This document shows positions 12,961-44,359 of a DNA stretch of 64,000 bases, piece by piece (position 1 is the stretch's first letter; every line of letters starts with the position of its first letter). The notes under the pieces were generated by a model. The model did no database searches and had not been told where the DNA came from. It saw only the letters and a list, made by a program, of their open reading frames with translations. The DNA lies in NCBI RefSeq assembly GCF_009914755.1, contig NC_060925.1. The stretch is one strand, 5' to 3'. Made by a program: the position numbers and the translations under genes. This DNA is from the human T2T-CHM13v2.0 reference genome, Homo sapiens.

Positions 12961-15011
12961 CATCTCCCTAGGTGTGTGACAGCCTGAGGCCAACCACCCA
13001 GGCCTTCTGACCCAGCCCCGGGAGATGTACCCCCAAGAGGCCACAGGGACATGCAGGCCGGAGGTGCAGAGGGCAGAGGGCAGGGGAGAGTCTTGCTTAG
13101 GCAACACGGGGGCCACTTCTGACCCTGCTGCCCGCTCATGGGATGTGTGACCTTCAGCTGCTCCAAAGAGCCTACCCTGTGCAAAGGCCTCTAATAGACA
13201 CTGGGGAAAACACACAAGCAAGTGAAAAGTGCCTTCTGGAAGTTTCCAGTGTAGCTGGGGAGACTGTTAAACACCAACAATAGCACAGCCAGATTGAAAG
13301 ACACAAACAAAATGCCTTCAGGATGCAGGCATTGAAAGATGTGCTGTTCTGTGTTTATGCTGTACAAATTGCAAATGGTAAGTTTCACATGACCAGTAAA
13401 AGGGTTATAATTCTTATTTTCCTATAGGTAAGACTTGCTTTTGTAGTCATTATAACAGGGCATGACAGAGACCTTGGTGAGAGTCGCCAGAAGCCAGTGA
13501 TCACAAGTGACGCAGTGGGTGAGGCAGGTTGGGAGTGGTGATGTGTCCAGCCTTAAATACATGGTATTAGGGCACTGAAGGGACAGGAAGGAAGATCCTG
13601 CTTCAACACAAGCAGGTTCAAGGAGCCACGGCATATCCACGATGGCAGACATGAAATTACCCAGGAATGGAACATTTAACAACAAAGAGCAGGAAGAGAT
13701 GGTGCCTGGATATGAGGCAGAAGCTGTACATTCACTGACTGAACAATCAACAAACACACAAATACCTCTTTTTTACCCATTACTCTAAATCTTCATTTAA
13801 AAAAATCATATCTCACATGGGCCTGTAAATTCTGAAATACATTTTTTTAATTACTTTGTTCCTATAGATAGGGACTCCTCAAAAATCACTTGTCTGGGGC
13901 CCCACAGCGACTTAGAGGTGGCTTTGTCTGAACAGAACATTCGGGCCAGGTACAGTGCCTCGCATCTGTAATTCAAACACTTTTTGAGGCCAGGAGATGG
14001 AGGTTACAGTGAGCTATGATTGCACCACTGCACTCGAGCCTGGGCTACAGAGTAAGACTCTGTCTCTAAATAAATAGACAATTTTAATTTAATTTTTTTA
14101 AAATAAGAGACCATTCAAAGTGCTCCTGCCTGCGAATGGGTTAGTTGGAACAGTAGAGACTGGGGTCCTAGGCCTGGCTGTGCCACTAACTAGTTGTTTG
14201 AGGATCAGCAAGTGGTTTAACTGCAGTAACAAGTCGACCTGGACACAAGGGGGAGGTAAGGATCTAGCACTGATTAAGCAACAACCTTGTGCCCAGTGTT
14301 TAAATATTTCGGCTCTTTAAAGCCTCACAATTTGTTTCATTCATTCACTATTCCTGGTGCTCAGCATATGTCAGGGAACAAAACAAAGATCCTGGTCTTT
14401 GGGAGAGTTTCCACTGTGCCTGGGCCTCCTGCCTCGGGCCCTTGGAATGATCACTCCATTCAACAGCAAAGATAATAAACAACTGATCAGGTAACATGCT
14501 GGAAAGTGGTGTAAAAGAAAATAAAATTTCAGGACCCTCTAAATTTGGCCTCTAAGCAAGCCAAACTTCTCTTAATAATGACACGTTACTGGGGAGAACA
14601 TAAGAAAATAATTTTGGTTAGATTGGACCCAATAAAGAATATCTGCTTAAACTTGTTGCAAGATTGGTTAAAAGCCCTTAATCCATGCCCAAGGCTGACT
14701 ATCAGCTGGGGGATCTTCTACGTAAGGCTTTAAAGCTCATTAAAATCAATCAGAAAATTGCTAGAGAATTTTATTGAGAATGTAAATTATTCCCATAAGG
14801 AGCAGCCATTCAAACTGACTGCAGACATTTGACCCAGCTCAGATTCAGGCCAGTTTTCTTCCCAGTAGGCACCTTCTGTGTTCATTCCATCAGTGGAAGT
14901 TTCTTATGTGTACATTCCATCAGCGGAAGTTAGGGACAGAGCTTATCTGTGGCTAAATGAAGACTGTTGAATGAAAAGCAGAGGTTCTACATAGAAACCA
15001 AATAAGCCATC

Positions 15012-15372
15012 TGATATGGTTTGGCTGTGTCCCCACCCAAATCTCCAATTGTAGCTCCCATAATTCCCATGTGTCACGGGAGGGACCCAGTGGGAGGTAA
15101 TTGAATCATGAGGGTGGATCTTTCTGGTGCTGTTCTTGTGATAGTGCATAAGTCTCATGAGATCTGATGGTTTTATAAAGGGGAGTTCCCCTGAACATGC
15201 TTTCTCTCTTTTGCCAGCCACCATGTAAGATGTGCTTTTGCTCCTCCTTCACCTTCCACCATGATTGTGAGGCCTCCCCAGCCACGTGGAACACATAAGT
15301 CCATTAAACCTCTTTTTCTTTATAAATTACCCAGTCTCTGATATGTCTTTATTAGCAGCGTGAGAACAGATA
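15012..15372 (+). mobile_element. THE1-family MaLR solo LTR
   Basis: Starts TGATATGGTTTGGCTGTGTCCCCACCCAAATCTC; typical 3' end ATTAAACCTCTTTTTCTTTATAAATTACCCAGTCTC. Confidence 0.85.
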
Positions 15373-15459
15373 CCATCAGTCAGAATCGGATCCAGGAAAC
15401 CAGCCACATATGGAGTCAGCAGAGCATGATGTATTAGTCAGGCAGGTGCTATTGGGATA

Positions 15460-15820
15460 TGTAGGGAAAAAAAAGAGAGATCAGACTGTTACTGTGTCTA
15501 TATAGAAAGGGAAGACATAAGAGACTCCATTTTGAAAAAGAGCTGTACTTTAAACAATTGCTTTGCTGAGATGTTGTTAATTTGTAGCTTTGCCCCAGCC
15601 ACTTTGACACAGCCCTAGATCCCTTAAACCTTGATTTTATACAACACATGTTTTTGTGAGCTCCAGGTTGGGTCAAAGTGGCTGGGGCAAAGCTACAAAT
15701 TAACAACATCTCAGCAAAGCAATTGTTTAAAGTATAGCTCTTTTTCAAAATGGAGTCTCTTATGTCTTCCCTTTCTATATAGACACAGTAACAGTCTGAT
15801 CTCTCTTTCTTTTCCCTACA
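15460..15820. mobile_element. HERV-K (HML-2) LTR5A/LTR5B-derived palindromic element made of two inverted U3 5' ends
   Basis: Both ends read TGTAGGGAAAA(G/A)AAAGAGAGATCAGACTGTTACTGTGTCTAT inward. Arms 15460-15608 and 15672-15820. Flanked by GGGATA / GGGATG. Confidence 0.9.
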
Positions 15821-16484
15821 GGGATGATGACGTTTGGGATCAGTTCTACTCTGTGGTTTCTGAGATGAGACTTGGTCTAAACTAGAACTCCTACTTTCCA
15901 ATCTCTTGACCACCCAGCTAGTCATGGGATGAACACATAAACTCCTCTCTCCAGCAAAACTAAACCAAACCAGGAAAGCAGATTATTTATTTATGTATAT
16001 GATGCAATCAAACCTGGAACCAGCTGTATGAGGTAAGGAAAGAATGAAGGGTAAATACAGGAATGGGGTTTCCATTTTTTGCCTCTGAGCCAAAACTAAT
16101 TGTTTCACAGGAGCCTTGTTCTCTGCTGGGATCAGAACTGCAACCCCACATCATGCCTTGGAAGAGACATGTGAGCCCTGAACATCATTTACTGGAAAGC
16201 AGGAAGAGGGGTGGAGCCTACTGTCCTGCATCCCATGATGGATCCTTGAAGTTCCAAGTTTTCCTTGCATGACAAGGACACTTCCCAGCATTTCTGGTCC
16301 TCATTGCTGCCCATCTATATCATGGGGGCTGGAACCGGGCATTTGGAGCTCTCGATTTGTAAAATGGGCTCATTAGGGAAAAGTCCATTTCTTTCCAATA
16401 AAGAACACTCAAATACAAACAGAATTTTCTTAAGTTGGCTCACATGGGCTTTAGACTCCTGACAAATAAAACAAAATAGTCTGA

Positions 16485-17770
<1,286 letters not shown>

Positions 17771-43990: not shown

Positions 43991-44359
43991 TGTCTTAGTT
44001 CATTCAGGCTTCTATAACAAAACAGCACAGACAGGGTGGCTTATAAACAACAGAAATGTGTTGCTCACAGTTCTGGAAGCTGGAAGTCCAAGATCAAGGC
44101 ACTGGCAGATTCCATGCCTGGTGAGGGTCTACTTTCTGGTTCCTGTGTCCTCACATGGTGGAAGGGAGGAGGGGGCCCTCTGTGACCTAATCTTTCATAA
44201 TGACACCAATCCCATTCATGAGGGCTCCACTCTTCTGACCTAATCACCCCTTAGAGGCCCCACTTTCTAATACCATTACCTTGCAGGGTATGGGTTCAAC
44301 ATACAAATTTTGGCGGGGTCGGGGGGGTGGTGCGGAATACAAGCAATCAGGCCATAGCA
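43991..44359 (-). mobile_element. MLT1-family MaLR LTR
   Basis: tgtcttagtt...ggtggcttataaacaacagaaat...ctcacagttctgga.gctggaagtccaagatcaagg is the reverse complement of the MLT1 3' end. Confidence 0.85.

What the first reader, a model, noticed from the sequence alone, without database searches (positions are those of the whole stretch)
15454..15826. MITE-like HERV-K LTR5 palindrome with two U3 ends and a retroviral-length TSD, 2.8 kb upstream of AGT
Seen: 15460-15608 and 15672-15820 are inverted repeats of 149 bp with only 2 mismatches around a 63-bp spacer. Both outer ends are the TGTAGGGAAAA start of LTR5 U3. On the minus strand 15820->15608 is a continuous 213-bp U3 (…ggatctagggctgtg) that switches abruptly onto the complement of its own earlier part (tcaaagtggctgggg). 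There is no R, U5 or internal sequence. The unit is flanked by GGGATA / GGGATG (5 of 6 match). Established: HML-2 integrase typically makes 6-bp TSDs and normally joins one U3 and one U5 end. Inference: a fold-back template switch during reverse transcription gave a 361-bp U3-U3 DNA that integrated as a unit, in effect a retroviral MITE. It could form a cruciform or a long dsRNA hairpin and doubles any U3 factor sites near the AGT promoter.
Basis: partly seen in the sequence, partly recalled or inferred. Interest (0 to 1): 0.85.

Follow-up and report, generated by a model that had tools for sequence, protein, structure and literature searches.

The report
Folded-back HERV-K LTR near AGT
A single-copy 361-bp palindrome made of the start of an old retroviral LTR and its own inverted copy sits 2.8 kb upstream of the angiotensinogen gene; one end matches the virus's plus-strand primer sequence, so it is likely the relic of a fold-back copying error made around the time of insertion, and it is not a transposon family.

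Summary
There are two 149-bp arms with 2 mismatches around a 63-bp spacer: HML-2 LTR5A U3 1-213 followed by inverted U3 149-1. It is single-copy, so it is not a MITE.

The left 'TSD', GGGATA, is also the exact end of the polypurine tract (PPT) that precedes 20 of 33 TGTAGGG-type 3' LTRs. Only the fold-back arm has this match; chance is about 0.3-0.9%, noticed post hoc. The inverted arm was therefore probably copied from a PPT-bearing U3.

Best model (0.40): plus-strand strong-stop DNA folded back and copied into its PPT primer, then was re-primed. Integrase joined the clean end, and the PPT-tailed end joined the target through GGGAT homology.

Rivals: fold-back repair in an integrated provirus followed by LTR-LTR excision (0.28); both ends joined by integrase (0.14); template switch in a solo LTR (0.14). 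The arms differ less than all six 5'/3' LTR pairs tested (2 versus 4-12), which mildly favours later formation or conversion. Primate orthologues were unavailable. No evidence of an effect on AGT was obtained.

The parts
15454..15459 (+). Left hexamer GGGATA: 5/6 copy of the right flank and 6/6 match to the end of the LTR5A/B polypurine tract (hybrid junction)
15460..15608 (+). Short (fold-back) arm: LTR5A U3 nt 1-149, inverted relative to the long arm; private change at 15471; rare variants at 15502 and 15542 shared with the other arm
15608..15820 (-). Long arm: continuous LTR5A U3 nt 1-213, same orientation as AGT; nt 1-149 (15820-15672) pair with the short arm; private change at 15735; base 15608 is shared by both pieces
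15609..15671 (-). 63-nt spacer, U3 nt 150-212 (hairpin loop); the fold-back junction has 1 exact shared base and 5 of 7 matching
15821..15826 (+). Right hexamer GGGATG: host target site next to a precise U3 end (inferred integrase-made junction)
   Evidence: flank unique in the genome

Best explanation
It is a single-copy palindrome of HERV-K (HML-2) LTR5A U3 sequence that likely arose when plus-strand viral DNA folded back on itself during reverse transcription and was then inserted with one normal end and one PPT-tailed end. Inferred steps: (1) plus-strand strong-stop DNA, still carrying its PPT RNA primer, stalled at U3 nt 213 and self-primed at nt 149 across a 63-nt loop. (2) RT copied back to nt 1 and on into the PPT. 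(3) RNase H cut at the primer-DNA junction, leaving PPT RNA annealed to its new DNA copy; this re-primed strand-displacement synthesis and gave a short duplex with two U3 ends. (4) Integrase joined the clean end (long arm) at GGGATG. (5) The PPT-tailed end, a poor integrase substrate, joined the same site through the shared GGGAT, leaving a hexamer that reads as both TSD and PPT; the same junction can be read as a 5-bp TSD plus one retained viral base. The anatomy, uniqueness and PPT match are shown; steps 1-5 are inferred. Today it is most likely a neutral relic that would form a 149-bp hairpin in pre-mRNA of the long AGT isoform.
For: (a) The left junction 13-mer matches the reverse complement of a natural PPT/U3 junction (L039) at 13 of 13. 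GGGGGATA precedes 20 of 33 TGTAGGG-type 3' LTRs; 12 have GGGGGAAA and 1 has GGGACATA; several are segmental duplicates. (b) Controls: none of 40 non-PPT copies has more than 4 of 6 matches to GGGATA upstream. Window background is 0.9% for >=5/6 to either PPT end, 0.26% for GGGAW and 0.016% for exact GGGATA. (c) The match is on the fold-back arm only, as the model predicts; the long arm's flank is not PPT-like. (d) The switch is local, with 5 of 7 microhomology, which 1.0% of 127,285 nearby position pairs in a natural LTR reach. A same-strand fold-back can only run into the PPT on a PPT-adjacent strand, and strong-stop DNA is both PPT-primed and destined to become the host-joined 5' LTR (established retrovirology; PMC13332604 figure legend). 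(e) PPT extensions of the U3 end are predicted to impair integration (PMC13332604 passages). In HIV-1, one-ended integration is completed by host enzymes that append viral sequence of either strand and join through short homology (PMC5041404 sections 10 and 12). (f) Rare variants shared by both arms need not mean late formation: three close-kin 5'/3' LTR pairs each share 1 such variant, against 2 here (one of the three may be an alignment artefact at the 14-nt repeat).
Against: The PPT match was noticed post hoc, covers only 6 nt and stops at -7. One-mismatch TSDs are common in kin (12 of 37 rows, 3 probably offset artefacts), so the mismatch alone needs no special cause. The arms differ at 2 of 149, fewer than all six 5'/3' LTR pairs measured (4, 4, 8, 10, 11, 12). 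P(<=2) is 0.24, 0.04 or 0.01 for means of 4, 6.7 or 8.2, and the naive age is about 4 My (95% range 0.5-14), against about 20 My for LTR5A proviruses (PMC3228705). Formation at insertion therefore needs some arm-to-arm conversion or luck. The two shared variants occur together in none of 56 other copies. Host-completed ends in HIV-1 usually give much larger duplications or deletions, and 0 of 184 unperturbed integrations were aberrant. Re-priming after a fold-back is my inference; I found no paper showing it.
Confidence: 0.4

Rival explanations
1. Post-integration, two steps. A normal provirus integrated with a GGGATG duplication. A break or stalled fork in its 3' LTR at U3 nt 213 was repaired by fold-back synthesis through U3 into the PPT, then joined at the U5/TSD end, deleting R-U5. 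Recombination between the 5' LTR and the remaining 213 bp of U3 later excised the internal region.
For: Explains the PPT match equally well: the observed junction matches a natural U5 end followed by the target hexamer at 11 of 13, the last 5 exactly. It also explains the young-looking arms and shared variants. Template switches that create inverted repeats are common in ape genomes (PMC7954356 passages).
Against: Needs two separate events, the second on only 213 bp of homology. The 148-nt inverted tract exceeds the 128-nt maximum of that study's gold-standard set (median 12), and about 800 bp must be lost as well.
Confidence: 0.28
2. One reading: an RT-made 361-bp U3-U3 DNA was processed and inserted at both ends by integrase, giving a 6-bp TSD that later took one point mutation. 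The PPT likeness is chance.
For: Both ends stop exactly at the TG...CA of U3. One-mismatch TSDs are common in LTR5A copies.
Against: Leaves a 0.3-0.9% coincidence unexplained, and has the same problem with low arm divergence.
Confidence: 0.14
3. A solo LTR5A suffered a four-point template switch during host replication. Synthesis folded back at nt 213, copied to nt 1, and returned at the LTR's own terminal repeat (CCCTACA versus CCCTTCA). This kept the TSD and deleted about 800 bp. The flank mismatch is a point mutation.
For: One event on the commonest substrate (most fetched kin are solo LTRs). It resets the arm clock, fitting 2 shared and 1+1 private variants. The terminal repeats match at 6 of 7.
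Against: A solo LTR has no PPT, so the 6/6 match must be chance plus a mutation to exactly the PPT base. The return must also land on one weak microhomology among many possible ones (inference).
Confidence: 0.14
4. Assembly artefact (fold-back chimeric reads).
For: Reads could not be examined.
Against: The arms differ at two positions, each private to one arm, both ends are exact LTR termini, and both flanks are unique sequence.
Confidence: 0.02

Closest known systems
HERV-K (HML-2) LTR5A solo LTRs and proviruses (Subramanian et al. 2011, PMC3228705)
   Same: U3 nt 1-213 is 95-98% identical to about 1.0-kb LTRs ending CCCTTCA, one of them followed by a Lys-type PBS (label recalled). It carries the segment near nt 135 that defines LTR5A, and has a short flanking duplication.
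   Different: Only 361 bp; no R, U5 or internal sequence; the second end is an inverted U3. It falls below that catalogue's 750-bp cut-off.
Aberrant one-ended retroviral integrations (HIV-1 and ASLV; PMC5041404)
   Same: One precise junction; the other end truncated, extended with inverted viral sequence and joined at short homology.
   Different: Germline and fixed in the reference rather than drug- or mutant-induced. The duplication is only 5-6 bp, and almost the whole provirus is absent.
Short-range template-switch mutations, four-point model (PMC7954356)
   Same: A reverse-complement tract creating a near-perfect inverted repeat with a short loop.
   Different: The tract is 148 nt against a median of 12 and a maximum of 128, with a large net loss; both outer switch points coincide with retroviral ends.
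MITEs / foldback DNA transposons
   Same: Short, non-coding, long terminal inverted repeats, flanking direct repeat.
   Different: Single copy, retroviral sequence, no transposase partner and no sign of ever having moved.

Membership tests
HML-2 LTR5A sequence | High identity to HML-2 LTRs (TGTAGGG start, about 1.0 kb, PBS-Lys after 5' LTRs) | tested here: met
   95-98% over 213 nt for most top hits; kin end at 999-1037 nt, and L017 is followed by a PBS (Lys label recalled)
HML-2 LTR5A sequence | LTR5A-specific insertion near position 135, absent in LTR5B (PMC3228705) | tested here: met
   A 13-nt segment at U3 134-146 is present here and absent in L067 and L068; criterion read; no Dfam/RepeatMasker run
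Solo LTR | Complete U3-R-U5 between TSDs | tested here: not met
   The sequence leaves U3 at nt 213; no U5 end
MITE | Short, non-coding, terminal inverted repeats | tested here: met
   361 bp, 149-bp arms; coding capacity judged from U3 identity only
MITE | Target-site duplication | tested here: inconclusive
   5 of 6 match, but the left copy is also the PPT end; the empty site could not be obtained
MITE | Multiple dispersed copies | tested here: not met
   Junction 24-mer with <=2 mismatches: 1 hit, itself. Outward-facing U3 motif pair 280-310 nt apart: itself only. No inverted second U3 in 86 other 3-kb loci
MITE | Mobilised in trans by a class II transposase | not testable with these tools
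   The ends are retroviral att-type; with one copy there is no sign of movement
Aberrant one-ended integration product | One integrase-type junction; other end extended with viral sequence and joined at microhomology | tested here: inconclusive
   The anatomy fits, but post-integration repair gives the same junctions
Aberrant one-ended integration product | Structure present from the time of insertion | not testable with these tools
   No primate genomes available; arm divergence is low relative to 6 of 6 LTR pairs

The most novel reading that the evidence does not exclude
The element is a germline fossil of a self-contained 'fold-back and PPT re-priming' product of reverse transcriptase: a 361-bp retroviral mini-DNA with two U3 ends, inserted by integrase at one end and by PPT/target microhomology at the other. 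A PPT-matching 'TSD' on the short arm would be a searchable fingerprint for a class of such LTR palindromes in other ERV families. This copy would supply the longest near-perfect local RNA duplex in the long AGT pre-mRNA within this window.
Probability: 0.3. Interest if true: 0.65.

Novelty: new variant of a known kind. Interest (0 to 1): 0.42.

Why it matters
If the origin was at insertion, this is a rare natural record of an aberrant reverse-transcription and integration intermediate fixed in the primate germline. It shows a route from an LTR to a foldback-like element. If the origin was later, it shows that a PPT/target microhomology can drive proviral collapse while leaving a convincing 'TSD', a caution for dating and classifying ERV fragments. 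Either way the question becomes directly testable from about 400 bp of orthologous primate sequence. Relevance to AGT (editing of the long isoform's pre-mRNA, or doubled U3 factor sites 2.8 kb from the main start) is a testable guess with no support yet.

Tried and rejected
Empty site from paralogues: both flanks hit only themselves.

Other copies: none by junction or by spaced motif pair. A genome-wide survey of outward-facing U3 pairs at all spacings was not achieved; only the 280-310 nt range and the fetched loci were covered.

Rfam at gathering threshold over 14500-17000: 0 matches.

Tree of 59 U3 rows: mostly unresolved, not used for dating or parentage. L042 (partial match), self loci and the duplicate loci L029 and L040 were left out.

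Shared variants as proof of late formation: rejected as decisive, because close-kin LTR pairs also share about 1 and position 42-43 is a recurrent CpG-type site (40 genome hits). Pos-83 G occurs in 2 other copies, neither with pos-43 A.

LTR pairs: 3 of 17 fetched windows had no U3 hit, so 6 of 9 intended pairs were scored. No consensus-based age was computed; dating rests on pairwise counts.

Literature searches found no description of this element: angiotensinogen+LTR5+upstream (0 papers); angiotensinogen+palindrome+endogenous retrovirus; AGT+angiotensinogen+inverted repeat+chimpanzee+promoter; LTR5A+AGT. Searches listed nothing on it by title or abstract start. Supplements of PMC3228705 and PMC7954356 had no hit for recalled hg19/hg38 coordinate prefixes. 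The supplement of PMC8755829 was a scan and unreadable. Non-CC papers, such as the AGT resequencing studies that included apes (recalled), were not searchable and may mention it. Earlier scan findings were not available.

Full report
OBSERVATION. The sequence is as described. Arms 15460-15608 and 15672-15820 differ only at arm positions 12 and 86. The unit is 361 bp: on the minus strand, U3 nt 1-213 followed by the reverse complement of nt 149-1, with one shared base. It folds far better than any shuffle, as DNA (z = -36) and as minus-strand RNA (z = -32). The only other inverted pairs in the 64-kb window with >=88% identity over >=80 nt are 10 and 35 kb apart. No Rfam family matches.

IDENTITY. 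A search of the genome returned 80 matches from 40 scored of 950 candidates; the best others are 95-98% identical over nt 1-213. Fetched copies continue past nt 213 as ordinary LTR sequence, mostly to a U5 end CCCTTCA at about 1000-1037 nt, and one is followed by a primer-binding site (HML-2/Lys labels recalled, no RepeatMasker run). The element has a 13-nt segment at nt 134-146 that two more distant copies lack. This is the LTR5A criterion of Subramanian et al., who date LTR5A proviruses to about 20 +/- 5 My and excluded solo elements under 750 bp (PMC3228705, passages). Among 37 non-PPT, non-PBS kin with a located 3' end, TSDs were perfect at 6 bp in 9, perfect at 5 bp in 12, had one mismatch in 12 (3 probably offset artefacts) and were worse or absent in 4.

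COPY NUMBER. The junction 24-mer with up to 2 mismatches hits only this locus. An outward-facing pair of U3 motifs 280-310 nt apart hits only this locus. Of 93 fetched 3-kb loci with a U3 hit, only the 7 that are this locus have hits on both strands; the other 86 include SVA-type loci and a few duplicates. It is not a MITE family. Other fold-backs with different spacing were not surveyed genome-wide.

THE LEFT FLANK. While checking kin I found that many LTRs are preceded by GGGGGATA. A genome-wide pattern for PPT plus TGYAGGG gave 33 sites: 20 end in GATA, 12 in GAAA and 1 in CATA; several are segmental duplicates, so the independent split is nearer half and half (the estimate is mine). The element's left junction matches the reverse complement of such a natural PPT/U3 junction at 13 of 13, and matches a U5 end followed by the right-hand hexamer at 11 of 13. 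The match ends after 6 flank bases, and the right junction has no PPT likeness. Controls: the upstream hexamers of 40 non-PPT copies match GGGATA at most 4 of 6; window background is 0.92% for >=5/6 to either PPT end, 0.26% for GGGAW and 0.016% for exact GGGATA. This is post hoc but sits at the diagnostic junction. The simplest reading (inference) is that the inverted arm was templated from a PPT-adjacent U3 and joined to the target through GGGAT. The same junction can be read as a perfect 5-bp TSD plus one viral base; both readings predict an empty site with a single GGGATG. The fold-back junction itself has 5 of 7 matching bases, a level reached by 1.0% of nearby position pairs (one search used a register off by one and is superseded).

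TIMING. Against 27 close kin, both arms share two rare bases (nt 43 in 1 of 27, nt 83 in 0 of 27) and each has one private change. Genome-wide, the nt-83 variant occurs in 2 other copies and the nt-43 variant motif at 38 other sites, a CpG-type position; none of 56 copies has both. As an empirical null I compared 5' and 3' LTRs of proviruses over the same columns; 6 of 9 intended pairs could be scored. Differences were 4, 12 and 4 in close kin and 11, 10 and 8 in more distant ones. Shared rare bases were 1, 1, 1 and 2, 5, 7. So two shared variants are unremarkable, but two differences is lower than every pair: P = 0.24, 0.04 or 0.01 for means of 4, 6.7 or 8.2; naive age 4 My, range 0.5-14 at 0.34%/My. 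This leans towards later formation or arm-to-arm conversion. Template switching is reported to homogenise inverted-repeat arms (PMC8604942, search listing only), so the clock cannot decide. The flanks are unique, so no paralogous empty site exists, and no primate genome was available.

MECHANISM. A same-strand fold-back reaches the PPT only on a strand where the PPT precedes U3, yet the long arm is joined to host DNA. Plus-strand strong-stop DNA meets both conditions, being PPT-primed and becoming the 5' LTR (PMC13332604, passages; PMC12789967, passages). Fold-back, read-through into the primer, the normal RNase H cut and re-priming would give a duplex with one clean U3 end and one PPT-tailed end, the tail on the short arm as seen. 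PPT extensions are predicted to impair integration. One-ended integrations are finished by host enzymes using short homology and viral sequence of either strand (PMC5041404, sections 10 and 12 read), though usually with larger duplications, and none occurred in 184 unperturbed HIV-1 integrations. I give this 0.40. Fold-back repair in the 3' LTR of an integrated provirus followed by LTR-LTR excision gives the same junctions and younger arms but needs two events (0.28). Integration of both ends by integrase (0.14) and a solo-LTR template switch (0.14) leave the PPT match to chance. These weights are judgement, not computed.

FUNCTION. By the supplied annotation the unit lies 2,784 bp upstream of the main AGT start, with the long arm in AGT's orientation, and inside the first intron of the isoform with an exon at 44069-44137; no RefSeq functional element overlaps it. 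It lacks the 3' part of U3, R and U5, where the LTR start and poly(A) sites lie (recalled), so it is unlikely to be an LTR promoter. Cruciform extrusion is unlikely with a 63-nt spacer (PMC7999016, passages). An RNA hairpin in long-isoform pre-mRNA is predicted. Nothing here shows an effect on AGT; a neutral relic is the default.

KNOWN OR NEW. Searches found no description (searches returned none; some searches were seen as listings only; PMC12657518 passages had no 'inversion' or 'inverted'; PMC7954356 passages and supplements; PMC8755829 supplement unreadable). Subscription papers and bioRxiv supplements were out of reach and could bear on this. Verdict: real, single-copy, a new variant of rearranged or aberrantly inserted HML-2 LTR, with an unexpected PPT fingerprint that makes its origin testable. 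Interest 0.42.

Noticed in passing
window 15005-15372 (+): A second masked LTR-like repeat ending 87 bp before the palindrome. It looks like a THE1/MST-type solo LTR (label recalled), with CCATC at both ends as a possible 5-bp TSD.
   Followed up: no
L025, L034, L036, L041-L065, U3 near nt 139: Many LTR5A copies carry 14 or 28 extra bases near U3 nt 139, apparently a variable tandem unit. The fold-back landing point (nt 149) lies just beside it.
   Followed up: partly
33 genome sites listed: TGTAGGG-type (older) HML-2 proviruses have two PPT endings, GATA and GAAA, whereas TGTGGGG-type hits (mostly SVA-like, label recalled) are almost all GAAA.
   Followed up: partly
L003-L065: LTR5A insertions show 5-bp and 6-bp TSDs at similar frequency (12 and 9 perfect cases of 37).
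   Followed up: partly
L098/L099 (G000:C4:9.09 Mb): The 3' LTR carries 10 rare changes in U3 1-149 against 2 in the 5' LTR, an asymmetry that may mean recombination or hypermutation.
   Followed up: no
window 14873-14931: A 29-nt head-to-tail direct repeat (90%). Part of it forms a 17-nt inverted pair with 15924-15940 across the element; probably chance.
   Followed up: no
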